Virus genome (UHGV): UHGV-0307316 | Reading direction: 5' to 3' (one strand) | From: a virus | DNA length: 64,000 nucleotides | In this document: one piece after another, positions 211 to 55,187 of the stretch | Numbering within the stretch: the stretch's first letter is position 1 | Layout: every line of letters begins with the position of its first letter | Made by a program: the position numbers and the translations under genes | The notes under the pieces: model-generated | Databases searched by the model: none | The model's input: the letters and a program-made list of their open reading frames with translations, nothing else | What the model was told of the DNA's origin: nothing

Positions 211-242
211 ACTAAATAAAATCCTAAACTGGAGATTCAAAA

Positions 243-431: not shown

Positions 432-637
432 TGCTTTACAGTCGTGAATTGATGGTTACAACTAACGTTAACACAAATGCAAAACGTTTTTACATGCAAA
501 TTTGTGGCGTATGGTCTAGAATATCAGAAGCTGACTATTGCAACTATGTAGAAACAGCTATAAACTCTAATTGCTACCTTACAAGAAATACTAAAAAATT
601 TACGAGACAGACAGCAATTTACTACTACGATAAATAA
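431..637 (+). CDS. hypothetical early protein
   Basis: ORF; ATG at 431 overlaps upstream stop (TAATG); ORF track alternative start 416. Confidence 0.5.
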   Translation: MLYSRELMVTTNVNTNAKRFYMQICGVWSRISEADYCNYVETAINSNCYLTRNTKKFTRQTAIYYYDK

Positions 638-644
638 AAAGTAC

Positions 645-680
645 TTTACAAGGGGCTTATAGTTCGATAAAGTAAGCCCC
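645..680 (+). promoter_or_regulatory. class-A promoter cassette (TTTACA-N17-TAAAGT) with embedded inverted repeat
   Basis: Consensus hexamers with 17-bp spacer; IR GGGGCTTA/TAAGCCCC spans spacer and -10. Confidence 0.5.
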
Positions 681-727
681 AGATAAAGAGCTTTACCAAA
701 TTAACCCTTAAACTAGGAGATTCAAAA

Positions 728-1111
728 ATGGCATATCGTGCACCTAAATTCATCAACAAAGACAACTTTCGCAACACACTGGAGAAGTCACTTGATGAAA
801 ATTTTAAAGGTAACATTATCGTTGTTCACGCATTCAATTTTAAGTATGATGTAAACGGGAATAGAATCAACCATTACACGGCAACCATGTTAGATGGTAC
901 ACTTTCAAGTGAAAAAGCCGTACTAAATGCACTGGCAGGACGTGGAAAGGTATTAGTAAGATGTGATAAGAGACGTTATCAGGGCGGTGCATATGGTTAT
1001 GATGATGCTGTTTACCATCTTGAAAATATGGGCTATCAAGTAGAAAAAGCTGGAGCATCACAAATCATCGGCAGTGATGGTTATGTAACTATCTTCAAAA
1101 TTAACAAATAA
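728..1111 (+). CDS. hypothetical early protein (127 aa)
   Basis: ORF with AGGAG RBS 8 nt upstream; preceded by class-A promoter cassette. Confidence 0.65.
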   Translation: MAYRAPKFINKDNFRNTLEKSLDENFKGNIIVVHAFNFKYDVNGNRINHYTATMLDGTLSSEKAVLNALAGRGKVLVRCDKRRYQGGAYGYDDAVYHLENMGYQVEKAGASQIIGSDGYVTIFKINK

Positions 1112-1116
1112 AGTAC

Positions 1117-1152
1117 TTTACAAGGGGCTTATAGTTCGATAAAGTAAGCCCC
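1117..1152 (+). promoter_or_regulatory. class-A promoter cassette
   Basis: Near-identical copy of 645-680 cassette. Confidence 0.5.
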
Positions 1153-1197
1153 AGATAAAAAGCTTTACTACTCAATCCTAAATTGGAGAACTTAAAA

Positions 1198-1491
1198 ATG
1201 GCTATTATCAAAAACGTTGTAATTACTGCAAAGACTCGTGATGACGCTCGCGTTATGGCTAAAAAGTTATGCGGTAAAGTGGTTGACAACGGAAAACAAT
1301 CTGCTGTAAGGTGGGGTGTGAAGGTTGATAAACAGTTGAAGTTAAAAAATTCACCGATAAACCTTTTTACATGTGTAAACACTATCGGGAAGACAAATGT
1401 ATACACGAAAAAGGCATACATTAGACGCGTAGCATTAACATCCCCCATTCGTACAATGAGAAGTTATGCAAAGCTGAAAATTAACAAATAA
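1198..1491 (+). CDS. hypothetical early protein, basic
   Basis: ORF track starts at TTG 1183; first ATG at 1198 has GGAG RBS. Confidence 0.6.
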   Translation: MAIIKNVVITAKTRDDARVMAKKLCGKVVDNGKQSAVRWGVKVDKQLKLKNSPINLFTCVNTIGKTNVYTKKAYIRRVALTSPIRTMRSYAKLKINK

Positions 1492-1496
1492 AGTAC

Positions 1497-1532
1497 TTTA
1501 CAGGGGGCTTAAAAGCTGATACCTTAAGCCCC
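1497..1532 (+). promoter_or_regulatory. class-A promoter cassette (variant)
   Basis: TTTACA plus IR GGGGCTTAA/TTAAGCCCC; -10 degenerate. Confidence 0.4.
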
Positions 1533-1576
1533 AGATAAAGAGCTTTACCACTAAATCCTAAACTGGAGATTCAAAA

Positions 1577-2089
1577 ATGAAAACTGTAGACGCTACCTTT
1601 GAAGTTGTAAAAGAAAAATTCACTATTATTTATGAAGCTGTCAATTGCTTTGAAGCAAGCCATAATCTTGATAATTGGGAATTTACAGATGACCATCAAG
1701 GCGGTGTGACGATTAAAAATCCTAACTGTCAGCGTAATGAATTTAAATATGCAATCCCTTTACATTACAGCCTTAAACAGCTTTCAAGTGACTATGCAAA
1801 ACAAGGCCGGGCAAATCCATCAAAAGAGGCTTACATCAGCTTACAGAAAGAACTAGAAAGAGATTTAGAGGCTTCAGAATATAACATTGCCGCGAAAGTT
1901 GTAGATGCAAATGGCAGCACTGTTTTAGAAAGTTTTTATATTGGTTACGCTTTCGATTGGTGCTACAGTGACGGCGATGATTTAGAGGATAGACTAAAAG
2001 AAGAGGTGAACAACGCAGACGCAGAATCTGAAGTATTAGAACGTTTGGAATCGTTGAAAGACTCAGTGATGAATATCTTTAAGAACTAA
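1577..2089 (+). CDS. hypothetical early protein, strongly acidic (170 aa)
   Basis: ORF with RBS; acidic C-terminal half (D/E-rich). Confidence 0.65.
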   Translation: MKTVDATFEVVKEKFTIIYEAVNCFEASHNLDNWEFTDDHQGGVTIKNPNCQRNEFKYAIPLHYSLKQLSSDYAKQGRANPSKEAYISLQKELERDLEASEYNIAAKVVDANGSTVLESFYIGYAFDWCYSDGDDLEDRLKEEVNNADAESEVLERLESLKDSVMNIFKN

Positions 2090-2098
2090 ATAGATTCC

Positions 2099-2134
2099 TT
2101 TACACGGGGTTATCAAGCTGGTAGGATAGCCCCA
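2099..2134 (+). promoter_or_regulatory. class-A promoter cassette (variant)
   Basis: TTTACA plus IR GGGGTTATC/GATAGCCCC. Confidence 0.4.
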
Positions 2135-2181
2135 GATAAAGAGATTTATCAAATAAAGCCCTTAAACTAGGAGATTCTAAA

Positions 2182-2478
2182 ATGAAATTATCAAATAAAG
2201 TCCGTGAAAATTTAAGCAAGTTACTTAATAAAATTGATTTCATTGAAACATCAAGAAATAGTCATGATGTTATGGAATGGTTACACGGAAAAATCAAAGG
2301 CCGTCGTGTAGTGATTTGCTTATGGAACAGTTGCAGGGAGTATAAAAAACCTGTATTGCAAGTCAATATTTATGATGATACTTTTAAAAGTCCTGTAAAA
2401 TCTAAAAGCGATTTATTAGAATCCTATGAGATAACTGTAAATGGCAAAGTATCACGTAAAGAGGAAACACCATGTTAA
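2182..2478 (+). CDS. hypothetical early protein
   Basis: ORF with AGGAG RBS. Confidence 0.6.
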   Translation: MKLSNKVRENLSKLLNKIDFIETSRNSHDVMEWLHGKIKGRRVVICLWNSCREYKKPVLQVNIYDDTFKSPVKSKSDLLESYEITVNGKVSRKEETPC

Positions 2479-2804
2479 TGACTGGTATCACTGCAATCAT
2501 TGCCATTTTCGCTCTATATAAGGCATATAAAGCCTATAATCTAGCAAATAAGGCAACCACCCAGCAGGTTAGCAATAGCCTTGTAGAAAGCTTTCTAGGG
2601 CGTTTAAGTGATGAGCAAATAAAGCGGCTAGAGATGAGCTTCAGATATAAAGCGAAAACCTATCAGATAAGTGACATCTTCAAAGATAATTTTCAGTTAG
2701 TGGATGATTATAATTCTCTGATAAATGCTTTAAATGTCAGTGACTTAAAAGACTACTACGCTGTAATTGTTCAAGAATTGAGCAAACGAAAACAAAACTG
2801 TTGA
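2472..2804 (+). CDS. hypothetical protein with N-terminal transmembrane helix
   Basis: ORF; N-terminus MLMTGITAIIAIFALYKAY is hydrophobic. Confidence 0.55.
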   Translation: MLMTGITAIIAIFALYKAYKAYNLANKATTQQVSNSLVESFLGRLSDEQIKRLEMSFRYKAKTYQISDIFKDNFQLVDDYNSLINALNVSDLKDYYAVIVQELSKRKQNC

Positions 2805-2860
2805 CACTGGTTTTTAGATAGATTAAATTACACATCAACGGGGAGGGAATGACCTTCCCC
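2801..2860 (+). promoter_or_regulatory. class-B promoter (TTGACA-N17-TAAATT) with 5' hairpin
   Basis: -35 2801-2806, -10 2824-2829, hairpin 2840-2860. Confidence 0.55.
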
Positions 2861-2894
2861 ACTAAATAAAGCCCTTAAACTAGGAGATTCAAAA

Positions 2895-3053
2895 ATGTTT
2901 TGTGCAGGTGATAAAGTTGTCTGGAATGATATAGATGACGGTTTATGTACGAAAGTTGTTGTTATCTTAGAAATTGATTATATCACTGGTGTTGCAACTG
3001 TAGCAGATAATGATATAATCTTTGATGTCTTAATTAGTGAACTGTCAAAATAA
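2895..3053 (+). CDS. small hypothetical protein (52 aa)
   Basis: Below ORF-track cutoff; open frame read by hand, ATG 7 nt after AGGAG, behind class-B cassette. Confidence 0.45.
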   Translation: MFCAGDKVVWNDIDDGLCTKVVVILEIDYITGVATVADNDIIFDVLISELSK

Positions 3054-3079
3054 AATCCTTAAACTAGGAGATTCTGAAA

Positions 3080-3352
3080 ATGTATACTACTAACAACGGT
3101 CGCACTTTAAACGTAACCCTGCGTCACTATGTGAATGGTGTGATGCACTTTGATGATTTACAAGCTGAGCAACACATCTTAAATTGGCAAGTTGCAGGAC
3201 TCCAAAAAACTGCTACAGGATACGGGAAAAAGATTCCAACCAGTTGGAAAGTATACTACGCAGGACGTTTACGCAGAATTTATCAAGATGTGCAAAGCAA
3301 TAGCGCATCGAGTTACATTATAGTAAAAGGCAAAAAACTGCATTTAATGTAA
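3080..3352 (+). CDS. hypothetical early protein
   Basis: ORF with AGGAG RBS. Confidence 0.6.
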   Translation: MYTTNNGRTLNVTLRHYVNGVMHFDDLQAEQHILNWQVAGLQKTATGYGKKIPTSWKVYYAGRLRRIYQDVQSNSASSYIIVKGKKLHLM

Positions 3353-3357
3353 AGTAC

Positions 3358-3393
3358 TTTACAAGGGGCTTATAGTTCGATAAAGTAAGCCCC
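3358..3393 (+). promoter_or_regulatory. class-A promoter cassette
   Basis: Identical to 645-680 cassette. Confidence 0.5.
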
Positions 3394-3438
3394 AGATAAA
3401 GAGCTTTACTACTCAATCCTAAATTGGAGAACTTAAAA

Positions 3439-3843
3439 ATGGCTATTAATAACCGTGAATTATCAATTTTAAAAGCACGTTTGACCGTTAACCGGATTAA
3501 TGTTATCACGTCATCAGCACCAGATGAAACACTACAAAACATTATTGGGAAGATTCAAAGTGTTATCTTAGACGTTGAAAGCGTAAAAAACTCATTGACT
3601 GACGTTGCAGCAGGTATCACGCTAGATGGTGCACAACATGAAATGGCCGACATGTTAGGCAAATCTAAGGTAATGAATAAAGAGTTAGATTTGAAAATGT
3701 TCCGATTTGCTGTTAAAGTGTGGTTATCTGTCGAGTATGATGCTAACTTTGCAATCGCTGACTTTTTCGCCACTTGGTTGCAGCGTAATTTGGCAAATCA
3801 CGATTTCCGTAATATCTGCGATGCAATTTATGCAGAACTATAA
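3439..3843 (+). CDS. hypothetical early protein
   Basis: ORF track starts at TTG 3424; ATG 3439 with GGAG RBS; N-terminus paralogous to 1198 gene (MAI..N). Confidence 0.6.
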   Translation: MAINNRELSILKARLTVNRINVITSSAPDETLQNIIGKIQSVILDVESVKNSLTDVAAGITLDGAQHEMADMLGKSKVMNKELDLKMFRFAVKVWLSVEYDANFAIADFFATWLQRNLANHDFRNICDAIYAEL

Positions 3844-3853
3844 AAAATTTTTG

Positions 3854-3912
3854 TTGACACTGGTTTTTAGATAGATTAAATTACACATCAACGGGGAGGG
3901 AATGACCTTCCC
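3854..3912 (+). promoter_or_regulatory. class-B promoter with 5' hairpin
   Basis: TTGACA 3854-3859, TAAATT 3877-3882, hairpin 3892-3912. Confidence 0.55.
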
Positions 3913-3946
3913 CACTAAATAAAGTCCTAAACTGGAGATTCAAAAA

Positions 3947-4150
3947 ATGGCTATTATTAATGGTTTAACCATTGAAACTACACACATCAAAGATATCAAA
4001 GTTGGTGATATAGTCCTTTCCCACGGCGTAGAAAAAACTGTCACTGCAAAGGATATCAAAGAGGATTCTTTCATGGGTAGGACTCTCTTCGGTGATTCTT
4101 ATTGCTTAGGCTATCTTGCAGTTTTAAAAGTTGTCAAAAATAACAAATAA
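3947..4150 (+). CDS. hypothetical early protein
   Basis: ORF behind class-B cassette. Confidence 0.55.
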   Translation: MAIINGLTIETTHIKDIKVGDIVLSHGVEKTVTAKDIKEDSFMGRTLFGDSYCLGYLAVLKVVKNNK

Positions 4151-4155
4151 AGTAC

Positions 4156-4191
4156 TTTACAAGGGGCTTAAAAGTTGATAACTTAAGCCCC
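4156..4191 (+). promoter_or_regulatory. class-A promoter cassette (variant)
   Basis: TTTACA plus IR GGGGCTTAA/TTAAGCCCC. Confidence 0.4.
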
Positions 4192-4236
4192 AGATAAAGA
4201 ACTTTACCACTAAATCCTAAACTGGAGATTCTAAAA

Positions 4237-4413
4237 ATGATGAACTACTTTAACATTCCCGATACCTGTAGATTATTGACACAAGAAGAAAATTTGGGTA
4301 AACCTTTCATTTACCACATGCCAGATAACACGGCAAAAACTTATAGTTACAATGTTAACCGTTTCACCGCATACGCTGCAAAGAACGGCTATAGGTTGGT
4401 TACTCAAAAGTAA
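4237..4413 (+). CDS. small hypothetical protein (58 aa)
   Basis: Below ORF-track cutoff; read by hand, ATG after GGAG, behind class-A cassette. Confidence 0.45.
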   Translation: MMNYFNIPDTCRLLTQEENLGKPFIYHMPDNTAKTYSYNVNRFTAYAAKNGYRLVTQK

Positions 4414-4489
4414 TGCTGGTTACAACTGCTGGCGAGATTCCTACAGTTGCAGTCAAACTAGTTTTCTCAAAGAAAGTTAAATAAAGCAC

Positions 4490-4525
4490 TTTACAAGGGG
4501 TTTATAGTTCGATAAAGTAAGCCCC
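4490..4525 (+). promoter_or_regulatory. class-A promoter cassette
   Basis: TTTACA-N17-TAAAGT, IR GGGGTTTA/TAAGCCCC. Confidence 0.5.
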
Positions 4526-4571
4526 AGATAAAGAGCTTTACCACTCAATCCTTAAACTAGGAGATTCAAAA

Positions 4572-5114
4572 ATGAAATGTTATCACGGAACTACTCAAGA
4601 AAATTTCCTCAACCTGATTAATAACGGTGATAAACCATCAGGCGCATGGAATTGTTCGGATATGGACGGCAATTTTTACGTGTATCCAGAAAATAAAATC
4701 TATGGCGACGATGATGAAGAGATAACATCGGAGGGCATTCAGCAAGCTCTAGGGAACGCCACTATTACGGCGGCCTTCCAGATGAAAACCCAAAATATTG
4801 TTATCTTAGAACTCGATATTCCAGATGATGAGCTAAATGATGATTATTCTTGTGATAATATGTCGAGTGTAGCAAGTTTTACAGAGTACTTTGATGTAAA
4901 CTGGATTAAAAAGGTCTATACAACAGAGTTTAACGCTATGTATTCGCCTTTTTGTCTTCCTTCACTGGATAACCCAAATATGAACTATCTTGATGAGACA
5001 TTAGAACTACTTGCTAAAAGTGTTCAACAGTCGGACAGTATTCAGGTTTTTTGTGACATCATAGATACACTGACAGGAAACATTGCAGAAGAGGATTTAA
5101 AGAGCTTTTTCTAA
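4572..5114 (+). CDS. hypothetical early protein, acidic (180 aa)
   Basis: ORF with AGGAG RBS; D/E-rich. Confidence 0.65.
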   Translation: MKCYHGTTQENFLNLINNGDKPSGAWNCSDMDGNFYVYPENKIYGDDDEEITSEGIQQALGNATITAAFQMKTQNIVILELDIPDDELNDDYSCDNMSSVASFTEYFDVNWIKKVYTTEFNAMYSPFCLPSLDNPNMNYLDETLELLAKSVQQSDSIQVFCDIIDTLTGNIAEEDLKSFF

Positions 5115-5146
5115 AAACCTATGCAATCACCTTATAAACACTAATC

Positions 5147-5167
5147 AGCCCCTTGTAGGGGCTTTTA
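5147..5167 (+). terminator. rho-independent terminator
   Basis: AGCCCC-TTGTA-GGGGCT followed by TTTT. Confidence 0.55.
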
Positions 5168-5180
5168 GAGGGCTTAAATC

Positions 5181-5414
5181 ATGCTTACAACCATTTATCT
5201 CATCCTCTCAATTTGTAATGGCCATTCATGTGACTTTAAAGGGCTTGAAGAGTTTACAGGAAGTAAAGAAAATGCTATTCAAGTTTGCCAGATAGCAAGG
5301 CAAGACTATCCCGCCAGTGATGATATACAATGTTACTTTAAGACAGAAGATGACGACGGAATCTATTTCGACAGTGTTGACGGTCAATATGAAATTATCA
5401 TTGAAAAAGACTAG
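5181..5414 (+). CDS. hypothetical protein with hydrophobic N-terminus
   Basis: ORF downstream of hairpin/T-run terminator at 5147-5167. Confidence 0.5.
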   Translation: MLTTIYLILSICNGHSCDFKGLEEFTGSKENAIQVCQIARQDYPASDDIQCYFKTEDDDGIYFDSVDGQYEIIIEKD

Positions 5415-5471
5415 ACAAGCCTGATAAAAGTCTGTAAATTGTCAATCAACGGGGAGGGAATGACCTTCCCC
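5411..5471 (+). promoter_or_regulatory. class-B promoter with 5' hairpin
   Basis: TAGACA-N17-TAAATT, hairpin 5451-5471. Confidence 0.5.
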
Positions 5472-5505
5472 ACTAAATAAAACCCTTAAACTAGGAGATT
5501 CAAAA

Positions 5506-5847
5506 ATGGCTTATGTAACCGTAATTACCGATAAAGCTGGCGCATCTTGGTCAACTCAAGTAAGTGATAAGATGTCACCTATGCAGTGCCTAAAATACTT
5601 TGAACAGTGGAACAAAGGCGAGGACACAAGCCCCTTTCAAGTGATGCAGATTATCCATGTAGATAACGAAGGGAATAAAACGGTTTTAAATAGTGAATAC
5701 TACGCAAGCCGTTTTGAAACGAGAAGTAAAACAATGAAGCTTTTACGTGAATCCGGTTATGCCCATATCGCCGCGTTAATCTGGGATGACCTGCTAAAAA
5801 GTCAGCGTATCAGCTATGTAAAGCCTGAAAAAATATTCATCAGTTAA
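5506..5847 (+). CDS. hypothetical early protein
   Basis: ORF behind class-B cassette. Confidence 0.6.
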   Translation: MAYVTVITDKAGASWSTQVSDKMSPMQCLKYFEQWNKGEDTSPFQVMQIIHVDNEGNKTVLNSEYYASRFETRSKTMKLLRESGYAHIAALIWDDLLKSQRISYVKPEKIFIS

Positions 5848-5976
5848 TCAATAACTTACAAAAAACTTTTAAAAAAGTGTTGACAATACCCCTTGACATT
5901 GGTAACTTTGTTCGAGGGGGCTTATCTAAAAGGGATTCACTTAAAAGATTCTTTATAGATAAGCTCAAAAAATTAC

Positions 5977-6035
5977 TTGCAATCAACTATCAAAACAAGT
6001 AAATTACTAATCAACGGGAAGGCAATAACCTCCCC
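5977..6035 (+). promoter_or_regulatory. class-B promoter with variant 5' hairpin
   Basis: TTGCAA-N17-TAAATT; hairpin GGGAAGG...CCTCCCC with compensatory changes. Confidence 0.5.
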
Positions 6036-6067
6036 ACTAAATAAAGTCCTAAACTGGAGATTCTAAA

Positions 6068-6598
6068 ATGAACAAATTTCAAGCTATCAACTTCATTCGT
6101 TCAAATGCTGTAATGTCTAAGCCTGTAAAAGATACATACGAATTCCGTTGTAATGGGGTACATTTCGCAACAATCACCAAATCAGAAAACGGGGCTTATT
6201 ACGTTCATCGTCGTAATGTTTCCACTGTTGTAGTCTCTCACTTTATGCAAGCTGTAGCGGAATTATTACCGTTATTCTTAGAGATTTACTTAGATGAGTG
6301 TAAAAACGTTCACAACCACGTTAAAAACCTTTTAAACGGTTATAAAATGGCTTATGAACGTTCTATCAAGTCCTTAAACAAGTTCTATAAAGCCCCTGAA
6401 AACTCTGTTGCTTCAGCCTATGGCGTAGGCGGTTGGACTGTTAGTCTCTTCGAAGTGGAAGAAATCGAGCTTTACGACCATCGACCTAACGGTTACTCTA
6501 AGACTCTCGGTGAAGGTTTAACGTTCAATATCAAGAACTTAGAAAAAACTTTAAAAGATATTGAAAAAGATATTGACGAGACAATAAAAAGTCTGTAA
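6068..6598 (+). CDS. hypothetical early protein (176 aa)
   Basis: ORF behind class-B cassette. Confidence 0.65.
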   Translation: MNKFQAINFIRSNAVMSKPVKDTYEFRCNGVHFATITKSENGAYYVHRRNVSTVVVSHFMQAVAELLPLFLEIYLDECKNVHNHVKNLLNGYKMAYERSIKSLNKFYKAPENSVASAYGVGGWTVSLFEVEEIELYDHRPNGYSKTLGEGLTFNIKNLEKTLKDIEKDIDETIKSL

Positions 6599-6632
6599 AT
6601 TGTCAATCAACGGGGAGGGAATGACCTTCCCC
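6573..6632 (+). promoter_or_regulatory. class-B promoter with 5' hairpin
   Basis: TTGACG-N17-TAAATT, hairpin 6612-6632. Confidence 0.5.
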
Positions 6633-6664
6633 ACTAAATAAAGTCCTAAACTGGAGTTATCAAG

Positions 6665-6928
6665 ATGGAAAACGTAGAATTAACCACACTTTTACAAATT
6701 GCAACTGACAAAGAAGATGTAGCACTGTTTCACCGTATCGAAAGCGATTTATTCAATGGTGAAATCATCAAAGAGTCTTACGAAGTTGTCGGATTCAAAG
6801 ATGGTAAAGCGTTTGGCTTTTTTGACCTCGACAAAGGCAACGCTGTCACAAAGTATGATGTCGTATCTTGTGAGATTCTTACAAAATACAACGAAAAAAG
6901 GCTTGCAACATACGCCAATATGCAGTAA
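6665..6928 (+). CDS. hypothetical early protein
   Basis: ORF behind class-B cassette. Confidence 0.6.
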   Translation: MENVELTTLLQIATDKEDVALFHRIESDLFNGEIIKESYEVVGFKDGKAFGFFDLDKGNAVTKYDVVSCEILTKYNEKRLATYANMQ

Positions 6929-6960
6929 ATTACTAATCAACGGGAGGCGATAACCTCCCT
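6903..6960 (+). promoter_or_regulatory. class-B promoter with variant 5' hairpin
   Basis: TTGCAA-N17-TAAATT; hairpin GGGAGG...CCTCCC. Confidence 0.5.
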
Positions 6961-6994
6961 ACTAAATAAAACCCTTAAACTAGGAGATTCAAAA

Positions 6995-7243
6995 ATGGCA
7001 ACTATCCGCGCTACTGTCAATGCCTATGGCTGTTATACTCTGGACGTTAAATTCGATATTGGTGGAACTGATGAGTGTTTTTCATTAGTGAAGACAGTTA
7101 TCAAACAAGTTATTCCAGATTATAACCCTACTGATGACTTCTGGAAAGATGCTGTAAAAGAGGCATTAAACGACGAGCATCACTATCATTACTGGGGTGA
7201 CTTGATTGTTTCCCTGTACTACAATAAACAAGGTTACAACTAA
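6995..7243 (+). CDS. hypothetical early protein
   Basis: ORF behind class-B cassette; followed by terminators. Confidence 0.6.
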   Translation: MATIRATVNAYGCYTLDVKFDIGGTDECFSLVKTVIKQVIPDYNPTDDFWKDAVKEALNDEHHYHYWGDLIVSLYYNKQGYN

Positions 7244-36097: not shown

Positions 36098-44206
<8,109 letters not shown>

Positions 44207-44208
44207 TA

Positions 44209-45381
44209 ATGGCAGTAGGTGAAATTCAAATTAGTGCCTTGCCTCAAGCATCCTTACCAATTGACCTTAGTGATATCTTCCATCTTAAGCAGGGTATTGA
44301 GGATAAGAGGTGTACTCTTGAGCAATTACTTGCTCCACACGCAAGCCTAAGAAATAACCCTCATGGTGTTACTAAAACACAAATTGGTTTAGATAATGTT
44401 ATTAATGCTCTTCAGTTAGTCGCTGCAAATAACTTATCAGATATTGTTAATGTAGCTGAGGCAAGAGCAAATCTACAGATTATGTCTTCAGAAGAGGTTA
44501 ATAACCTTGTCCAGCAACATATCAAGGACAAGAGTAACCCACACAATACAACTAAGGCACAGGTTGGTTTAAGTAATGTTCAGAACTGGACAACATCTAA
44601 TCTGTATAACGAAGATGCAGATAAGTATGCTACAGCAAGAGCATTAAATAACTTGTACAAGGCTGTTCAGGCTTCTTATCCAGTAGGTACTATCCATCTT
44701 TCTATGAACTCTGCAAACCCTTCCACATACTTAATTTGTGGAGGTACTTGGGAGTTAGTTTCAAAAGGCAGGGCATTGGTTGGCTATGACTCTGATACAA
44801 GACCAGCAGGTTCTATATTTGGCGCTTCAACTGTCACTTTGTCAGTTAATAACATACCTCAGCACTCCCACTCTGTGTCTCTTAGCGGTGGTGGTCACAC
44901 TCATAATGCAACTGTGTCAATTTCAGCTTTTGATTATGGGACTAAGACTACAAACTCTTTTGACTATGGGACAAAAGCTACTAACACAACTGGTAACCAT
45001 ACACACAGTGTGTCAGGTAACACTAGCACCAATGGTACTCACAACCATGATGTGTATCCTAGAGCAAATGATGGCTCTGGTAATGCTGTGGCTGACTCTG
45101 ATGGTGGTGGTCCAAGAAGGACATCAAGGACTTCTAGTGATGGTGCGCACTCACACAGCTTTAACGTCACATCTGGTGCATCAGGTGACCACAGCCACAC
45201 GGTTGGTATTGGTGCTCACAGTCATACAGTTGGTATTGGTTCACATACGCATAGTGGCACTGTAACAGTTTCTTCTTCTGAACATACACATAGTGGCAAT
45301 ACAAATAGTGTTGGTGGAGGTCAGGCAGTTAATATTGAACAGCCATCCTTCGTACTGTATGTATGGCAGAGAACAGCTTAA
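44209..45381 (+). CDS. tail fiber protein with His-rich HxH repeats
   Basis: C-terminal Gly/Ser/Thr-rich region with repeated HTHS/HSHT motifs and FDYGTK repeats; ends ...VWQRTA; terminator follows. Confidence 0.65.
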   Translation: MAVGEIQISALPQASLPIDLSDIFHLKQGIEDKRCTLEQLLAPHASLRNNPHGVTKTQIGLDNVINALQLVAANNLSDIVNVAEARANLQIMSSEEVNNLVQQHIKDKSNPHNTTKAQVGLSNVQNWTTSNLYNEDADKYATARALNNLYKAVQASYPVGTIHLSMNSANPSTYLICGGTWELVSKGRALVGYDSDTRPAGSIFGASTVTLSVNNIPQHSHSVSLSGGGHTHNATVSISAFDYGTKTTNSFDYGTKATNTTGNHTHSVSGNTSTNGTHNHDVYPRANDGSGNAVADSDGGGPRRTSRTSSDGAHSHSFNVTSGASGDHSHTVGIGAHSHTVGIGSHTHSGTVTVSSSEHTHSGNTNSVGGGQAVNIEQPSFVLYVWQRTA

Positions 45382-45391
45382 TTTCTTTACA

Positions 45392-45411
45392 GGGGCTTTA
45401 TAGCCCCTTTT
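45392..45411 (+). terminator. rho-independent terminator after first tail fiber gene
   Basis: GGGGCTTTATAGCCCC followed by TTTT. Confidence 0.6.
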
Positions 45412-45427
45412 AAGAGGAAAATTTATA

Positions 45428-47776
45428 ATGGCAGATTACAAATTGAGTGAGCTAAACTCAATCGACACAATCCGTTCAGATGACCTTCTTCATGTCAGAG
45501 TTAAAAAGAGACCTAAAATGCTGGGTGATGAAGACCGTCGAATGACCTATCAAGATTTCTTAGCATCTTTTAAGCTTGAAAGATTTGTTCAGATTGCTGG
45601 TAGCACTATGACGGGTGACTTAGGAATTGTTAAGCTACTTTACGGTGGCAAGGCTGTATTCGACCCCACAGGCTCTTCTGAGATTACTGTTGGTGATATT
45701 TTAAAGACTTTTAAAATCAACGCAAACGACCTTAAACTAACTATTGCAGACGCTTCAAGGTCGGCAACTGTTTATCATACTTTGAATAAGCCAAGCCCTA
45801 ATGAACTTGGGATGAGAACTAATGAAGAGAATGACGCAAGGTATGCAAGACTAGCCGTGAATAATACCTTTAGAGGTACTCAAGCTATCCTCTCTGACAA
45901 TGGAGCGCTCATTATTAAAAATATCACTCAAGGTGCTCCACTCTATCTTCGTGGTCAAGATGCAGATGGTACTAACAGATGGTATCTAGGTAATGATAAT
46001 AGGGGTACAAATAATCTTGTATTGAAGAATGTAAAGTCTGACGTTTCAATTGCTATTTTAGAGAATTTGGTGAAAGTCAACAGAACTCTTCAAATTGCTG
46101 GCCAAGTTCAGCCTTCAAGTTTTGCTAACTTAGATGCTAGGTATTTTACCCAGACAGCAGCTAATCAGAGATTTGCGCAGTTAGCTGGTAATAACACTTT
46201 TACTGGTACTAACACTTTCTCTAATTTTGTTGCTAAGAAGAATGCTGAAGCCATCACTCTGCGAAATGTGGACACTGCTCCCTCTTTATATATCCGAGCA
46301 AGAAAGTCAGATGGGAATTATAAGTGGTATATTGGTAATGACGGTGATGAGAACATTTTAAAAATCTATAACTATCTAACAGAAACACAAGTCTCACTAG
46401 GTAACACTATTGCCATGAGCAAAACAGTTCGAATTGATGGTCAAGTACAACCTTCTGATTGGACTAACATTGATTCTAGATATATTCCGGCAGCCACTTT
46501 GAGTAATCTCCCTAAACTTAATGTTGCTAATACTTTCACAAATGTGCAGACTATTGTATCAGATAATGAAGGTTTAGTATTAAGGAGCTTAACACAGGGA
46601 CAGCCACAATATATCCGTGGTGTTGATACTGCGAATGTATCTAGGTGGTGGCTGGGCGTAGGAACTGCTAATTCTAACGTGGTAACCTTGAGCAACAGCT
46701 TTTCAGGCACTCAAATTTCCCTAGAGCCAACATTGGTTAGTATGAATAAGAATCTGTATATTAATGGGCAGGTTCAACCAAAAAATTGGTCTAACTTAGA
46801 TGCTAGATACTTTGTTAAGACTCAGTTATTAAATCAATCTTTGATGACTGCATCTGTAGATAATCTTGAAAACCCTTCAGCATTTAATCTTGGGTATTCA
46901 GGTTTTGTCAGAAACAACAATGTGACTAGTGGTCTGAAAGAGTTGGCAATTCATGTTGCTCACTCTAGTAAGACTGCTGCACACGCAAGGGGTATCTCTT
47001 TTGTATACGGTTCAAACGGTTTGGCAACATTCACCTATGCCTATGACAAAAATGGTGACTATGCCGGAGAGGCACAGATTTACACAACTGATTTTAAACC
47101 AACCCCTTCAGAGATTGGTGCATATACTAAAGCAGAAACTGACCAGAAATTTGCAACAGCAATTAGTGACTCTACAGACCTTAATAAAATCTATCCAGTA
47201 GGTATTGTAACTTGGTTTAACAGTGATGTTGACCCTAATACAGCACTACCTGGGTTAACTTGGACGTATCTTAACAATGGTGTTGGTAGGACTATCAGGA
47301 TTGCAGCAGCAGATGGTTCAGATGTTGCTACAACAGGTGGTTCAGACTCTGTGGTGTTATCTGTTGGTAACTTACCGTCACACACCCATAGTTTCTCTGC
47401 TACCACTTCATCTTTTGATTATGGTACGAAGAACACTAATAGTACTGGTGCTCACACCCACTCAGTTAGTGGTACTGCTGCATCTGCTGGGCAACACGCA
47501 CACAGAATTTCACAGGGTGACAACGCTAACGTTCCATCAGGTAGAGTTGCATCTTCGAACTCTGCTCAGACCCATGTTGGTTGGACTGAAAATGATGGTG
47601 CTCACACCCACTCAGTTAGTGGTACTGCTGCATCTGCTGGTGGACATGCTCACTCTGTAGGTATTGGTGCTCACAGCCACACAGTTAGTGGTAACACTGG
47701 TGGTACAGGCTCTGGTTCAGCATTTAGTGTTACTAACCAGTTCTACAAGTTAATGGCTTGGGTAAGAACTGCTTAA
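45428..47776 (+). CDS. long tail fiber protein with His-rich HxH repeats
   Basis: 782-aa protein; C-terminal 120 aa homologous to 44209-45381 product; ends ...AWVRTA. Confidence 0.7.
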   Translation: MADYKLSELNSIDTIRSDDLLHVRVKKRPKMLGDEDRRMTYQDFLASFKLERFVQIAGSTMTGDLGIVKLLYGGKAVFDPTGSSEITVGDILKTFKINANDLKLTIADASRSATVYHTLNKPSPNELGMRTNEENDARYARLAVNNTFRGTQAILSDNGALIIKNITQGAPLYLRGQDADGTNRWYLGNDNRGTNNLVLKNVKSDVSIAILENLVKVNRTLQIAGQVQPSSFANLDARYFTQTAANQRFAQLAGNNTFTGTNTFSNFVAKKNAEAITLRNVDTAPSLYIRARKSDGNYKWYIGNDGDENILKIYNYLTETQVSLGNTIAMSKTVRIDGQVQPSDWTNIDSRYIPAATLSNLPKLNVANTFTNVQTIVSDNEGLVLRSLTQGQPQYIRGVDTANVSRWWLGVGTANSNVVTLSNSFSGTQISLEPTLVSMNKNLYINGQVQPKNWSNLDARYFVKTQLLNQSLMTASVDNLENPSAFNLGYSGFVRNNNVTSGLKELAIHVAHSSKTAAHARGISFVYGSNGLATFTYAYDKNGDYAGEAQIYTTDFKPTPSEIGAYTKAETDQKFATAISDSTDLNKIYPVGIVTWFNSDVDPNTALPGLTWTYLNNGVGRTIRIAAADGSDVATTGGSDSVVLSVGNLPSHTHSFSATTSSFDYGTKNTNSTGAHTHSVSGTAASAGQHAHRISQGDNANVPSGRVASSNSAQTHVGWTENDGAHTHSVSGTAASAGGHAHSVGIGAHSHTVSGNTGGTGSGSAFSVTNQFYKLMAWVRTA

Positions 47777-50691: not shown

Positions 50692-51051
50692 TTATGGGAA
50701 CAGACACTTAATGTCATCGTTTTTGAAAACGAAACTTGTGTAGTTGTGACCATCAACATCCAACCAAACAGCCTGAACATCTACACCATCAATATTCTGG
50801 TAAAGCTCTTTAATGAAGTGGTCTTTCACAAACTGACTGCTAGTGGTTTCCAGCTTGATGTTTGAGATTGCTGAACCTACAGCCATATAACCCATGACAC
50901 GTTTCTTCTCAGTATGCTTAATCTTACCATCTTTGTAAGCCATAATGAGATTGGAGAGAATCTTCACACCATAATACTTTTCAAGGTGAGTAGGTACACC
51001 GTAAAAGCCTAATGCGAAGTTTTCAGAGTGGATAATGTTTTCACGTTTCAT
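50692..51051 (-). CDS. hypothetical protein
   Basis: ORF. Confidence 0.55.
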   Translation of the reverse strand: MKRENIIHSENFALGFYGVPTHLEKYYGVKILSNLIMAYKDGKIKHTEKKRVMGYMAVGSAISNIKLETTSSQFVKDHFIKELYQNIDGVDVQAVWLDVDGHNYTSFVFKNDDIKCLFP

Positions 51052-51052
51052 A

Positions 51053-51382
51053 TTAATCTGCCAACCTTAAATTAAAATTAACACCAAATTTTTCACATAC
51101 TTCCAACATATACTCAAGGGAGACATTACCAGTGAGATGAATTATGTTGGACACACGAGCCTGAGAGATACCACAAATTTTAGCAACTTGCTCTTGAGAA
51201 AGACCTCTGGATTTAATCTCTCTCTTAAAACGATGTGCAACGAAGTCTCTCATTTCGTCTACATCCATTGGACAAATATAACTCTCCATTTCAGCCTCTC
51301 TATCAGCCTCCCAATCATCTTGTGGGGCATAAGGGTCAAAAACCTCATTCATCTTTCTTCTTCCGTTTGCGTGAAGTATCAA
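51053..51382 (-). CDS. HTH XRE-family transcriptional regulator
   Basis: LSQEQVAKICGISQARVSNI helix-turn-helix motif. Confidence 0.6.
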   Translation of the reverse strand: MILHANGRRKMNEVFDPYAPQDDWEADREAEMESYICPMDVDEMRDFVAHRFKREIKSRGLSQEQVAKICGISQARVSNIIHLTGNVSLEYMLEVCEKFGVNFNLRLAD

Positions 51383-51557
51383 TTAATGAGTCTATGTTAG
51401 TAGCCCTGACCTTTTCACGTTCATCGTTAAGATAATCATCAAGAGCCTTTTCAATCTGTGAATCATCTTGACAGATAACTGTAAAGACTGTAAAGCCGTC
51501 TGTATCGTCAATTATCTTACCATAACCGCTTCTGGGATGTAACTTTTTAAGAGCCAT
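51345..51557 (-). CDS. hypothetical protein
   Basis: ORF. Confidence 0.4.
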   Translation of the reverse strand: MALKKLHPRSGYGKIIDDTDGFTVFTVICQDDSQIEKALDDYLNDEREKVRATNIDSLIDTSRKRKKKDE

Positions 51558-51558
51558 A

Positions 51559-51942
51559 TCAAATACCTGTGCAGCTTCTGTTTTCTAAGAAATACTCAAC
51601 ACCATACATAGCTTTTTGCATCAAATCTTCTTTAAACTGAATACGATGATTAAGCATAGCCTGTACATCAATATCATCATGGTGCTTCTCTTTAATATTT
51701 GCAGATTGCAGGAAATACTCTGCAAGAACACGATACTGATAGTCAGTTACCTTGTCAGTCATCTCTGTTAAAGACTCTTCAGAGATTGGTTTAAGTAACT
51801 CACCATTAGCCAAAGCAACACCTTTAACAATCTGACAAGTGTCTTCTGGAACACCTGATAAGTCCACATTTGGAAGTTCTGTTGCATTGACTGGTAAATT
51901 CATTGCCATAACCATTGCAGCAGCTAATAAAATCTTTTTCAT
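51559..51942 (-). CDS. secreted/periplasmic protein
   Basis: N-terminal signal peptide MKKILLAAAMVMAMNLPVNA. Confidence 0.55.
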   Translation of the reverse strand: MKKILLAAAMVMAMNLPVNATELPNVDLSGVPEDTCQIVKGVALANGELLKPISEESLTEMTDKVTDYQYRVLAEYFLQSANIKEKHHDDIDVQAMLNHRIQFKEDLMQKAMYGVEYFLENRSCTGI

Positions 51943-52423
51943 AATGACCTCAAAGTTATATTGAATTTTGTATTACATTGAGTATAAAAATAAGCTATAA
52001 CACCTGACTTGTCAACAGACTTTATAGCTTATTTGGCAGATTTTTTATAAGGCTACTGCCATCCTTCCATACCACACCTCACCCAACCATACCATGCCTT
52101 ACCAGACCGCACCTTGCCTCATTAAAAGACCCTCTTAAAAGACCTTTTAAAAAGGTAAGTCTCATTTTAATGTAGCTGAGACTAACTACCCGCACCGAAC
52201 CTCACCTGACCTGACCGCGCCATACCTAACCGCGCCTTACCACACCTCACTTAAAAACCCTATGAGATACTCTATCGAATATAATTTAAAGACTCTTAAG
52301 TGATGTAATCGAATTTTTATGTAGCTCCGATTAACTACCCGCACTTTACCAAACCTCACCCTACCCTACCAGACCTTACCTAACCGCGCCGTACCTCATT
52401 AAAAGACCCTCTTAAAGACCTTT

Positions 52424-52447
52424 TAAAAAGGAGCCTCCGAAGAGGCT
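52424..52447 (-). terminator. rho-independent terminator
   Basis: Minus-strand hairpin GCCTC-TTCGG-GAGGC followed by T-run. Confidence 0.5.
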
Positions 52448-52458
52448 ACCTAGTCAAC

Positions 52459-52899
52459 TTAGAAAGGTTTTCTACGTTGCTTGTTAATGTTAGCTTTCAT
52501 AGCAGCTAAATGGTTTTGCTGTTCAATTAGTCGTGAACGTTCTTGATGGCTAAGTACCATAGTGTTCACATTCTCAATCGCTTGAGTGGCTTGCTTTAAA
52601 GCACGACCAATCTTACCAGACATTTTACGTTTTGCAATAGTTGCTTGATGCTTAGGTTCAACCACACGATAACCAACACCCATTGAAGCAACCAGATAAA
52701 TCTTCTCTTCTTTAAGAAGCTTCTCAATAAACTTCTCAAGTCGATTTAAGCGTGTAAGTGCGTAAGCTTTCATTTCATCTTCGTACTTAACAATGTCACC
52801 TTGATAAGTTGGCTTCACAATACCTAAGAAGGTATCCATCTCAGAGTGTGATACAGTGTCACCGTAACTAAACTTTGCTGCTAATGCTTTTGTATTCAT
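52459..52899 (-). CDS. hypothetical protein
   Basis: ORF; terminator downstream at 52424-52447. Confidence 0.55.
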   Translation of the reverse strand: MNTKALAAKFSYGDTVSHSEMDTFLGIVKPTYQGDIVKYEDEMKAYALTRLNRLEKFIEKLLKEEKIYLVASMGVGYRVVEPKHQATIAKRKMSGKIGRALKQATQAIENVNTMVLSHQERSRLIEQQNHLAAMKANINKQRRKPF

Positions 52900-52901
52900 A
52901 A

Positions 52902-53507
<606 letters not shown>

Positions 53508-53893
53508 TTAGTTGATTGTTAAGTTGTTTGTAAAGAACCCTCAACAGAAGACTCTTTAGAAACTTGGTAGATTTTTAACGTGGATACTACCATCCACCCA
53601 TACCGTGCCACACCACACCGGACCGTACCATGCCCAACCCTACTACACCAGACCTTATTAAAAGACCCTCTCCAAAGACCTTTTAAAAAGGTAAGTCTCA
53701 TTTTAATGTAGCTGAGACTAACTACCCATACATTACCGCACCATATTATACCCTACCCCACCATACTTCACTGCACCGAGCCACGCATTACATCACTTAA
53801 AAAACCTTTTCAAAGACTCTTAAGTGATGCTGGTGAGTACCCGTTGGTTTATGCTGCTCAGTATACTCACCAAATTTTCTATGTCAACAACTT

Positions 53894-54994
53894 TTATTCG
53901 TAGTCTCGAATAACGAGACCAACAGGGAACTGTAAAGAACCCTTACGAGTCATCTTCTGGAACTGAACCGTTAAAGGTTTCCCGATAAACTCTTCAGGAT
54001 GCTCAGCAAGATACTGTTTCTTCTCGTGTGTAGTTTTCCATGAAACATCTACAAAGACGTTAGGAAGAGTCTCTACAACGAACTTACCATGACCACGCTT
54101 ATCAGTCTTTACACCAGTCACTTTAAACTCTTCAGTGTGCATCTTCTTGTGCTTAATCAAGAAGTATGAACGGTGACCACACTCATAGAAAGATTCTTCA
54201 GAGATTGAACGGTACATTGCACCTTCAAACTTAGCTTCAACCCACTTATCATGAGCTTCATCAAACTCTTCCCAAGAATTTACACGGATAGTCTGTACAG
54301 GAACAACTCTACAGGTATCCCCAAGCTCAACAATAGGTGAGTTATCAATAACTTCACGACGCTCAGGCCAAGATTTTGAATTGTCACAGATATCATACCA
54401 GTAGAATTTAAGAAGGTGACGGTCTGGATTGTCAGCATTCTTAATCATAGATACAATATCTTCTAAGTCCCAACCATGAGCATAAATCTCTCCGTCAAAG
54501 TCTTCAACTTGCGGATGTAATTTAAGCAACAAAAGCAAATCTGGGATTAGTTCTGTTGGAACGTTGTAAACAGTATTCTCACGAGAATAAGCTGTGAAAC
54601 TGACTGAATCAGCATCTCTTGAGATTCTACAACGTACACCATCAAGTTTTGGTTGAGCATCAGCAGGGAACTTCAGATACTTTGCATGACTAACCTTTGC
54701 AGCATCATGAGCAAGCTGTACACCTACCTTCTCAGTATTCTGTGCAGACTCTTTTGTGTAAGCATAACCTTTACGGTCAACTTGCTTTTTATACTTAGCA
54801 GCAACTTCAAAGAGAGCTTGCTGTTCAGCGTTACGCTCATTCTTTTTACCGATGTTCTTAGGCTCTGCTGTATACTCTTCAAACATCATCTTGCCATTCT
54901 CTTTACCATAGGTTGTAATAACTTTGTCACCTACAGCAACACATGACCAGACGTTGAAGGAACCATCTTTATTTTGTTTGTACAGAATTGTCAT
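53894..54994 (-). CDS. ATP-dependent DNA ligase
   Basis: Adenylation motif I KLDGVR, motif IV FEGAMYR, motif V LIKHKK; start moved to ATG 54994 with AGAGG RBS. Confidence 0.8.
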   Translation of the reverse strand: MTILYKQNKDGSFNVWSCVAVGDKVITTYGKENGKMMFEEYTAEPKNIGKKNERNAEQQALFEVAAKYKKQVDRKGYAYTKESAQNTEKVGVQLAHDAAKVSHAKYLKFPADAQPKLDGVRCRISRDADSVSFTAYSRENTVYNVPTELIPDLLLLLKLHPQVEDFDGEIYAHGWDLEDIVSMIKNADNPDRHLLKFYWYDICDNSKSWPERREVIDNSPIVELGDTCRVVPVQTIRVNSWEEFDEAHDKWVEAKFEGAMYRSISEESFYECGHRSYFLIKHKKMHTEEFKVTGVKTDKRGHGKFVVETLPNVFVDVSWKTTHEKKQYLAEHPEEFIGKPLTVQFQKMTRKGSLQFPVGLVIRDYE

Positions 54995-55187
54995 TTTTAA
55001 CCTCTGAGTGATACCAAGTATTGCAAGCATTACATGCGTAAAGCTCTAAGTCATTTTTATCTGGTTTGTGGAAACAGTTTGACCCACAACGACACCGGAA
55101 TAGCTTACCATCAACACGAAGAATGAATGTTTCAAGCTCACCATCTTCTGTAAGAACTGCGTTCTTAAATTTATCTTCTACAGTCAT
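54969..55187 (-). CDS. zinc-ribbon protein
   Basis: CRCGSNC ... CNAC motif. Confidence 0.45.
   Translation of the reverse strand: MTVEDKFKNAVLTEDGELETFILRVDGKLFRCRCGSNCFHKPDKNDLELYACNACNTWYHSEVKNDNSVQTK

What the first reader, a model, noticed from the sequence alone, without database searches (positions are those of the whole stretch)
51950..52458. Intergenic region with C/A-rich tracts and a repeated hairpin unit (copies 1 and 2)
Between minus-strand genes lie about 60-bp tracts rich in ACC-type pentamers (G/T-rich on the coding strand), flanking a conserved unit CATTAAAAGACCCTCTTAAAAGACCTTTTAAAAAGG plus hairpin AGTCTCA...TGAGACT plus CTAACTACCCGCAC at 52120-52198. A partial second copy is at 52298-52430. 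The unit recurs at 53650-53733. No ORFs are present. They could be promoter/terminator modules for the minus block, a miniature mobile element, or binding-site arrays.
Basis: seen in the sequence. Interest (0 to 1): 0.45.

Follow-up and report, generated by a model that had tools for sequence, protein, structure and literature searches.

The report
Phage VIPR guide-RNA array (vrRNAs)
The odd C/A-rich pentamer tracts and hairpins are, read on the gene strand, guide-RNA genes of a VIPR system, a recently described CRISPR-like phage weapon, so the finding is real but already explained.

Summary
On the minus (gene) strand the window has five tracts of 10-13 GGYNN pentamers, each followed by a conserved pseudoknotted tail. 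They flank two genes at 52459-53489.

Two 2026 bioRxiv preprints (10.64898/2026.04.26.720920 and .720927) describe this system as VIPR. Vipr protomers polymerise on about 100-nt vrRNAs made of GGY/NN repeats. They hide the GGY and use the NN dinucleotides to read double-stranded DNA with a one-base skip, which silences competing mobile elements.

I reached the protein-tract association independently, in both directions:
- A DNA-pattern search for the tracts recovered Vipr homologues in at least 30 unrelated viral contigs.
- A protein search found 115 same-strand tracts against 1 opposite-strand tract.

Applying the published skip rule, three of the five guides match an ~11-kb satellite-like island found in hundreds of E. 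coli genomes, and none match the phage itself.

Verdict: already known. This locus belongs to the experimentally characterised SUSP1 clade. Interest is low to moderate.

The parts
52033..52123 (-). vrRNA dn3, the last of the downstream array. It has 10-11 GGYNN repeats (52123-52069) with NN code (GA) AA GC CT AA AT AT TG GA GT AT, then a terminal-type pseudoknot tail GGAAGGATGGCAGTAGCCTTATAAAAAATCTGCCAA (52068-52033).
   Evidence: Repeat register; tail coordinates; pseudoknot covariation. The 1-nt-skip scan gives 18/22 matches in satellite loci L231 and L237.
52158..52251 (-). vrRNA dn2. It has 11-12 repeats (52251-52192) with NN code (GA) GT AA GC TA AT GC CA CA GA TC GC, then the internal type-I tail GGGTAGTTAGTCTCAGCTACATTAAAATGAGACT (52191-52158).
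   Evidence: No target at or above 80% NN match in the eight satellites sampled.
52307..52400 (-). vrRNA dn1. It has 11-12 repeats (52400-52341) with NN code (GA) AC GC TA AA CT AG AG GA TT AA GC, then the internal type-II tail GGGTAGTTAATCGGAGCTACATAAAAATTCGATT (52340-52307). Its stem 2 carries compensatory changes relative to type I.
   Evidence: The scan gives 20/24 in the large serine recombinase gene of satellite L230, with 0/300 shuffled guides reaching that score.
52118..52157 (-). Inter-vrRNA hairpin (U)ACCUUUUUAAAAGGUCUUUUAAGAGGGUCUUUUAAUGAGG. Copies lie at 52394-52431 and 53655-53693.
   Evidence: RNA folds. The equivalent linker hairpins in unrelated VIPR loci covary strongly. Its role (leader, processing or spacing) is not established.
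52245..52305 (-). Long leader hairpin CAUCACUUAAGAG...UUAAGUGAGG that precedes vrRNA dn2. A shorter copy at 53791-53829 precedes vrRNA up1.
52425..52450 (-). Intrinsic-terminator-like hairpin GGUAGCCUCUUCGGAGGCUCC followed by a run of U, directly after the vap1 stop codon.
52459..52899 (-). vap1, the VIPR accessory protein (146 aa, phrog_5926). It is mostly helical with one beta-hairpin.
52902..53489 (-). vipr, a ~20-kDa ancestral RAMP (195 aa from the ATG at 53489; phrog_4652).
53564..53659 (-). vrRNA up2. It has 11-12 repeats (53659-53600) with NN code AA CT GT AG TG AT AC CC GT GT AC AT, then the terminal-type tail GGGTGGATGGTAGTATCCACGTTAAAAATCTACCAA (53599-53564).
   Evidence: No target at or above 80% in the sampled satellites.
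53694..53792 (-). vrRNA up1. It has 13 repeats (53792-53728); six of them depart from GGY (five carry T or A at G1, and one, AAT, lacks both G). NN code AA GT TC GC GA AT GG AG AT AT GC AA AT. The type-I tail follows at 53727-53694.
   Evidence: The scan gives 23/26, with ten consecutive perfect NN, in the tape-measure gene of 4 of 8 satellites; 0/300 shuffled guides reach that score and the skipped base falls on codon position 3.
53860..53887 (-). Sigma-70-type promoter-like site TTGACA-N16-TATACT (11 of 12 matches), directly after the DNA ligase stop. It is the likely start of the upstream vrRNA/vipr transcript.
   Evidence: Also present in Felix O1, wV8 and SUSP1.

Best explanation
The region is the downstream guide-RNA array of a type II VIPR (Viral Interference Programmable Repeat) system of the phage SUSP1 clade. 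It holds three vrRNA genes. Two more vrRNA genes lie upstream of the vipr-vap1 gene pair at 53564-53792.

Each vrRNA is about 91-99 nt, transcribed from the minus strand. It consists of 10-13 GGYNN repeats and a 3' pseudoknot tail.

The mechanism comes from the two preprints and was not tested here. One Vipr (RAMP) protomer binds each repeat. It flips out and hides the GGY and presents the two variable bases. The filament then reads double-stranded DNA as NNxNNxNN (one base skipped per repeat), forms an R-loop triplex, and silences transcription with no PAM requirement.

Shown here by computation:
- the anatomy of the five vrRNAs;
- the RAMP fold and near-identity of the two proteins to SUSP1 Vipr and Vap1;
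- covariation supporting the tail pseudoknot;
- hypervariable NN against conserved GGY;
- guide matches for three of the five vrRNAs in an ~11-kb satellite-like island of E. coli that carries tape-measure and baseplate genes about 90% identical to the phage's own.

Inferred, not shown: the phage uses these guides to repress a satellite that parasitises it.
For: - **Phage identity.** The window is a Felixounavirus.
- **Tract anatomy.** There are five same-strand (GGYNN)n tracts, and nothing like them elsewhere in the 64 kb.
- **DNA pattern to protein.** The pattern (GGTNN)6GGT, scanned in IMG/VR, gave more than 120 loci. In at least 30 unrelated ones a homologue of the 200-aa ORF lies in the same few-kb locus as the tracts.
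- **Protein to DNA pattern.** Of 80 loci chosen by protein homology alone, 57 carry tracts within about 870 nt of the gene. There are 115 same-strand tracts and 1 opposite-strand tract. Median tract length is 11 units, with composition G 0.98, G 0.93, Y 0.98, N, N.
- **Identity to SUSP1.** 97% for Vipr and 99% for Vap1. SUSP1 is the phage used for the sRNA-seq, pull-down, GFP-silencing and cryo-EM experiments.
- **Tail pseudoknot.** 92.6% of cells pair against 71% in shuffles and at most 39% when slid; 9 of 11 pairs show changes on both sides.
- **Linker hairpins in other clades.** 95.4% paired, 104 double-sided changes, 0/500 shuffles, and many G-U pairs.
- **Hypervariable NN.** Across 76 distinct tracts of the clade, NN entropy is 1.9 bits against 0.3-0.9 bits for GGT.
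- **Targets by the 1-nt skip rule.** vr_up1 scores 23/26, vr_dn1 20/24 and vr_dn3 18/22 in satellite islands. Shuffled guides reach these scores 0/300, 0/300 and 5/300 times.
- **No self-target.** The best score in the window itself is 18 or less, which is chance level.
Against: - Nothing here shows that the RNAs are made or bound in this phage. Expression and binding are known only for SUSP1 and the P. fulva prophage.
- Two guides (vr_up2, vr_dn2) have no match at or above 80% in the eight satellites sampled.
- Exact 10-NN patterns found nothing in IMG/VR. The genome-contig scan gave one hit, in a Chloroflexota MAG, which I put at about the number expected by chance (my estimate, ~1).
- The vr_dn1 and vr_dn3 matches (83% and 82%) are only just above the preprint's 80% threshold.
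- vr_up1 has six non-canonical repeats, and the preprint reports that perturbing GGY abolishes silencing.
- A terminator-like hairpin sits between vap1 and the downstream array. How that array is transcribed is therefore unresolved.
- Both source papers are preprints.
Confidence: 0.95

Rival explanations
1. The units are ordinary transcription punctuation: intrinsic terminators and promoters reused between minus-strand genes, like the promoter/stem-loop cassettes of T4-type phages.
For: A terminator-like hairpin lies at 52450-52425. Promoter-like sites lie at 53887-53860 and 52015-51987. The early region of the same window does carry repeated promoter/hairpin modules (families D1-D3).
Against: - The repeated hairpins are not followed by T-runs, and the scan found only two terminator-like sites, which is the number expected by chance.
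- This idea does not explain the 5-nt periodicity, the conserved GGY with random NN, or the exclusive linkage to a RAMP gene across unrelated phages.
Confidence: 0.02
2. The units are a miniature mobile element, or a recombination cassette, that carried the two genes into the phage.
For: Felix O1 lacks both genes and keeps one hybrid tract where they would sit. wV8 annotates the flanking copies as direct repeat DR_4. The number of tracts differs between close relatives.
Against: - There are no terminal inverted repeats or target-site duplications.
- The unit is found only at this locus, in contigs of 51-94 kb, most of them 87-90 kb as expected for Felix O1-like genomes.
- Strand specificity and G-U pairing argue for an RNA.
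- Gain or loss by recombination between repeats is compatible with VIPR and is not an alternative to it.
Confidence: 0.02
3. The G-rich sense-strand tracts act at the DNA level, as a replication origin (iterons or R-loop priming), as G-quadruplexes, or, on the C-rich antisense strand, as Rho loading sites.
For: The locus lies in the replication module, between the DNA ligase and the dihydrofolate reductase/thymidylate synthase genes. GG-N3-GG spacing could in principle form two-tetrad quadruplexes. These were my own early hypotheses.
Against: - The association is with the RAMP gene, not with replication genes: the ligase is not conserved next to the tracts outside Felix O1-like phages.
- The conserved pyrimidine at position 3 and the tight 9-12-unit length fit a protein-per-repeat filament.
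- The preprints show direct RNA binding and structures.
Confidence: 0.01

Closest known systems
Type II VIPR system of Escherichia phage SUSP1 (bioRxiv 10.64898/2026.04.26.720920; structures in 10.64898/2026.04.26.720927)
   Same: - Same locus order: ligase, vrRNA(s), vipr, vap1, then three vrRNAs.
- Vipr is 97% and Vap1 99% identical.
- Same GGY/NN repeats, same pseudoknot tail sequences, and the same upstream promoter.
- Guides point at an E. coli satellite.
   Different: - All NN codes differ from SUSP1's.
- This phage has two upstream vrRNAs instead of one. The extra one has six non-canonical repeats, yet it has the best natural target match.
- The host phage is a Felixounavirus rather than a Suspvirus.
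Class 1 CRISPR-Cas backbone (Cas7/Csm3/Cmr4 on crRNA)
   Same: - RAMP fold with a glycine-rich loop and a thumb.
- One protomer per fixed RNA step.
- A variable guide capped by a conserved structured handle.
- Arrays of guide units.
   Different: - 5-nt rather than 6-nt periodicity.
- Three of every five guide bases are sequestered.
- The target is read with a gap.
- No cas1/cas2, no spacers of foreign origin and no other Cas subunits.
- It is phage-encoded.
TRAP-type RNA binding (11 G/UAG triplets with 2-3-nt spacers wrapped on an 11-mer ring)
   Same: A conserved triplet plus two free bases, repeated about 11 times, with one protein subunit per repeat. This is a resemblance I recalled from memory before the fold result came in.
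   Different: The protein has an unrelated fold. It forms an open helical filament, not a closed ring. The spacer bases carry the information, and the function is DNA targeting rather than attenuation.

Membership tests
VIPR system | A small (~20 kDa) Vipr protein with RAMP architecture: RRM core, glycine-rich loop and thumb. | tested here: met
VIPR system | An adjacent accessory gene (vap; vap1 in type II). | tested here: met
   The 146-aa ORF starts 2 nt after vipr ends and is 99% identical to the SUSP1 protein. Homologues follow vipr in about 70 of 80 unrelated loci.
VIPR system | vrRNAs made of 9-16 tandem YNNGG repeats, with conserved GGY and hypervariable NN. | tested here: met
   There are five tracts of 10-13 units. 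Clade-wide entropy is 0.3-0.9 bits for GGT against 1.9 bits for NN. In unrelated loci the composition is G 0.98, G 0.93, Y 0.98.
VIPR system | A conserved structured 3' tail (a pseudoknot in the SUSP1 clade). | tested here: met
   The H-type pseudoknot is S1 cols 3-6/17-20 and S2 cols 9-15/28-34. Pairing is 92.6%, and 9 of 11 pairs show compensatory changes across four tail classes.
VIPR system | vrRNAs lie in the intergenic regions flanking vipr, on the gene strand. | tested here: met
   Two lie upstream and three downstream, all on the minus strand. Across other loci there are 115 same-strand tracts against 1 opposite-strand tract.
VIPR system | Natural targets in competing mobile elements under the 1-nt skip rule (at least 80% NN match), with no self-targeting. 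| tested here: met
   Three of five guides reach 82-88% in satellite islands, against shuffled-guide maxima of 19-20. The best score in the phage's own window is 18 or less. Two guides have no target in the sample.
VIPR system | vrRNAs are expressed as ~100-nt RNAs, co-purify with Vipr, and silence the target. | not testable with these tools
   This was shown for SUSP1 and the P. fulva prophage in the preprints. Here there is only a promoter-like site at 53887-53860.
CRISPR-Cas | A CRISPR array of identical repeats with foreign-derived spacers, plus cas1/cas2 or a multi-subunit effector. | tested here: not met
   No such repeat-spacer array turned up. Only two proteins are encoded, and Pfam gives no Cas family hit. 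Periodicity is 5 nt.
Rfam RNA families | A match to any curated covariance model. | tested here: not met
   Only sub-threshold chance hits appeared in 51000-55000.

The most novel reading that the evidence does not exclude
Two details go beyond what the preprints report, as far as I read them.

(1) The extra upstream vrRNA has T or A at the first G in five of its 13 repeats and lacks both G in a sixth. Even so, it has the best natural target match: 23/26, ten consecutive perfect NN, in the satellite tape-measure gene. Across the clade, the first G is only about 80% conserved. This suggests that the first G of GGY is dispensable in vivo, which would relax the code to xGY.

(2) Felix O1 itself has lost vipr-vap1 and keeps one decaying hybrid tract, and identical guides appear with different tail types in different phages. 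This suggests that the vrRNA repeats themselves act as recombination substrates that shuffle guides and gain or lose the whole cassette.
Probability: 0.3. Interest if true: 0.4.

Novelty: already known. Interest (0 to 1): 0.3.

Why it matters
VIPR is a newly described, minimal RNA-guided DNA-recognition system, proposed to be older than CRISPR. This window adds a natural instance in a Felix O1-like therapeutic or typing-type coliphage. It comes with five decoded guides, predicted targets for three of them, and the satellite island those three point at. That makes the phage-versus-satellite conflict directly testable in E. coli.

For the genome scan, it shows that 5-nt-phased GGY tracts next to a ~190-aa unannotated gene are a reliable signature of VIPR. 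Current annotation misses them: records list them as 'repeat_region', 'DR_4' or 'terminator'.

Tried and rejected
- **Rfam** at a permissive threshold gave nothing relevant.
- **First literature searches** (Felixounavirus repeats, Felix O1 origin, pentanucleotide repeats, Cas7-like phage proteins) found nothing. The VIPR preprints surfaced only after the fold result suggested the search terms.
- **Early hypotheses dropped once the RAMP linkage appeared:** a TRAP-like ring site, an R-loop or origin element, Rho loading sites on the antisense strand, G-quadruplexes, Chi-like or primase-site clusters, and a packaging site. UAB_Phi87, a Felix O1-like phage, has 608-bp terminal repeats; I did not map where they lie relative to this locus.
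- **DNA ligase as a conserved third partner:** it is not conserved outside Felix O1-like phages.
- **Exact-pattern target scans:** the four scans in IMG/VR were negative, and the genome-contig scan gave a single hit at about the chance expectation.
- **BLAST of the vrRNA tail against E. coli genomes:** no match. The sampled satellites carry no vrRNAs of this tail type, and no GGYNN tracts were detected in the three satellites scanned for them.

Full report
**Observation.** The informative strand is the minus strand, on which all neighbouring genes lie. Read that way, the 'ACC-type' tracts are runs of GGYNN pentamers. Runs of 5-nt-phased CC occur at only five places in the 64 kb, and all five are on the same strand: about 52060-52120, 52190-52250, 52339-52395, 53598-53650 and 53726-53790. 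The motif that follows the internal tracts, GGGTAGTTARTCNNAGCTACAT, occurs three times against 0.02 expected. The feature is real and non-random.

**Context.** The window is a Felix O1-like myophage, 92-94% identical over 3 kb to Escherichia phages dune, heid and REP5. The tracts occupy two intergenic regions that bracket two unannotated genes downstream of the DNA ligase. Existing records label pieces of them 'repeat_region', 'DR_4' or 'terminator'. Felix O1 itself lacks both genes. It has a single intergenic region with one tract, whose left flank matches the upstream region and whose right flank matches the downstream one. Rfam has no match.

**Linking the tracts to a protein.** I scanned IMG/VR for (GGTNN)6GGT. 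Besides simple tandem repeats, this returned many unrelated contigs with non-simple tracts of 10-18 units. These were often arranged in arrays and mostly lay on the sense strand of the flanking genes. BLASTP of the window's 200-aa ORF against all ORFs of those loci found homologues in at least 30 of them, in the same few-kb loci as the tracts.

The reverse test used 80 loci chosen only by homology to that protein:
- 57 of the 80 carried tracts within about 870 nt of the gene.
- There were 115 same-strand tracts against 1 opposite-strand tract.
- Median tract length was 11 units, with composition G 0.98, G 0.93, Y 0.98, N, N.
- A homologue of the 146-aa ORF followed the gene directly in about 70 of the 80 loci.

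**RNA structure.** In unrelated loci, each tract is followed by GGGCUG-N4-5-CAGC, and then in most loci by a long hairpin and a short third hairpin. On 36 linkers, 95.4% of cells pair, there are 104 double-sided changes, no shuffle out of 500 reaches the observed value, and G-U pairs are frequent. G-U pairs place the structure on the sense strand.

In the Felix O1-like clade the tail is an H-type pseudoknot. Four tail classes keep it through compensatory changes: 92.6% of cells pair, against at most 39% when the partners are slid, and 9 of 11 pairs covary.

**Identification.** With the fold in hand, a literature search found two 2026 bioRxiv preprints. They describe exactly this system as VIPR:
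- Vipr is an ancestral RAMP and vap is an accessory gene. The vrRNAs are about 100 nt, with 9-16 YNNGG repeats and a conserved tail that is a pseudoknot in the SUSP1 clade.
- One protomer binds each repeat, GGY is sequestered, and the NN bases read DNA with a one-base skip.
- Binding silences transcription.
- The natural targets of the SUSP1 clade lie in a satellite phage.

The window's proteins are 97% (Vipr) and 99% (Vap1) identical to those of SUSP1. All residues the structure paper names as contacting RNA or DNA are present (one search read). The SUSP1 intergenic regions carry the same promoter, hairpins and tails, but different NN codes. Across 76 distinct tracts of the clade, the NN positions are near maximal entropy while GGT is conserved.

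**Targets.** Exact 10-NN patterns found nothing in IMG/VR. The genome-contig scan gave one hit, in a Chloroflexota MAG, which I put at about the chance expectation. Megablast of the structural region showed that 412 of 5,426 complete E. coli genomes carry a chromosomal element with 86-94% identity to the window's tape-measure and baseplate genes.

This element is an ~11-kb island. It is inserted at several sites and carries two serine recombinases, in most copies an HNH endonuclease and in some a methyltransferase. Relatives occur in 570 genomes.

Scanning eight such islands with the published rule gave:

| Guide | Best NN match | Where | Shuffled guides reaching it |
|---|---|---|---|
| vr_up1 | 23/26 | tape-measure gene of four islands; skip on codon position 3 | 0/300 |
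| vr_dn1 | 20/24 | a large serine recombinase gene | 0/300 |
| vr_dn3 | 18/22 | intergenic, in two islands | 5/300 |
| vr_up2 | 19/24 | none at or above 80% | 144/300 (for 17/24 in the first three loci) |
| vr_dn2 | 17/24 | none at or above 80% | 152/300 |

No guide matches the phage's own window above chance.

**Verdict.** Its 'binding-site array' option is right at the RNA level; the terminator and MITE options are not supported. The feature is a VIPR guide-RNA array of the already characterised SUSP1 clade, so it is already known.

**Residual points of interest:**
- the extra upstream vrRNA with non-canonical repeats and the best target match;
- the loss of the cassette in Felix O1, which left a decaying tract;
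- the unresolved role of the G-U-rich hairpins between vrRNAs and the unresolved transcription of the downstream array;
- two guides still without a target.

Noticed in passing
L005:2440-2525 (Felix O1, NC_005282.1): Felix O1 lacks vipr and vap1. It keeps one hybrid tract with several decayed GG units (GGTAA GGTGA TGTGA AGTCT GGTCT GGCAT GGCGT AGTCT GGTAT), sitting between the upstream promoter/leader and the terminal-type tail. It looks like a deletion remnant left by recombination between flanking vrRNAs.
   Followed up: partly
window 37140-38980; L230-L237: An ~11-kb chromosomal island occurs in 412-570 of 5,426 complete E. coli genomes. It is inserted at mdtG, yciI/tonB, a DUF72 gene or near wrbA. 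It carries tape-measure and baseplate genes 86-94% identical to the phage's, plus two serine recombinases, in most copies an HNH endonuclease and in some a methyltransferase. It is probably the satellite that the vrRNAs target.
   Followed up: partly
window 52069-52118 compared with a tract in L008: Nearly the same guide (AA GC CT AA AT AT TG GA GT/GA AT) appears in another Felix O1-like phage, but attached to an internal-type tail instead of the terminal one. This suggests that guides are shuffled between array positions.
   Followed up: no
window 149-7000: The early region contains families of repeated modules in front of short genes: TTGACA-containing promoter-like sequences, a GC-rich hairpin (GGGGAGGGAATGACCTTCCCC or AAGGGGCTTA...TAAGCCCC), and a shared ribosome-binding leader. 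Some of these correspond to direct repeats listed in the Felix O1 genome paper (PMC3185647).
   Followed up: no
window 37704-37889: A perfect-register tandem duplication of 93 nt (98% identical) lies inside the tape-measure gene region.
   Followed up: no
window 18880-24400: A cluster of tRNA-like repeats (shared T-arm/acceptor sequences) is present, consistent with the 22-23 tRNAs reported for Felix O1-like phages. I did not run the tRNA finder.
   Followed up: no
window 44896-47693: Repeated His-rich coding motifs (GGTGCTCACACCCACTCAGTTAGTGGT and relatives) are shared between two adjacent genes. They match the intragenic repeats the Felix O1 paper reports for gp76 and gp77; the window ORFs themselves were not examined.
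   Followed up: no
L125:3233-4394, L049:2217-3406, L039:4600-5047: Unrelated IMG/VR contigs carry very long head-to-tail vrRNA-like arrays (7 to about 18 tracts) with short fixed end motifs (GGCAG, GGAAT GGTTT, GGCTA) and almost no linker. These are probably the other array architectures mentioned in the preprint.
   Followed up: no
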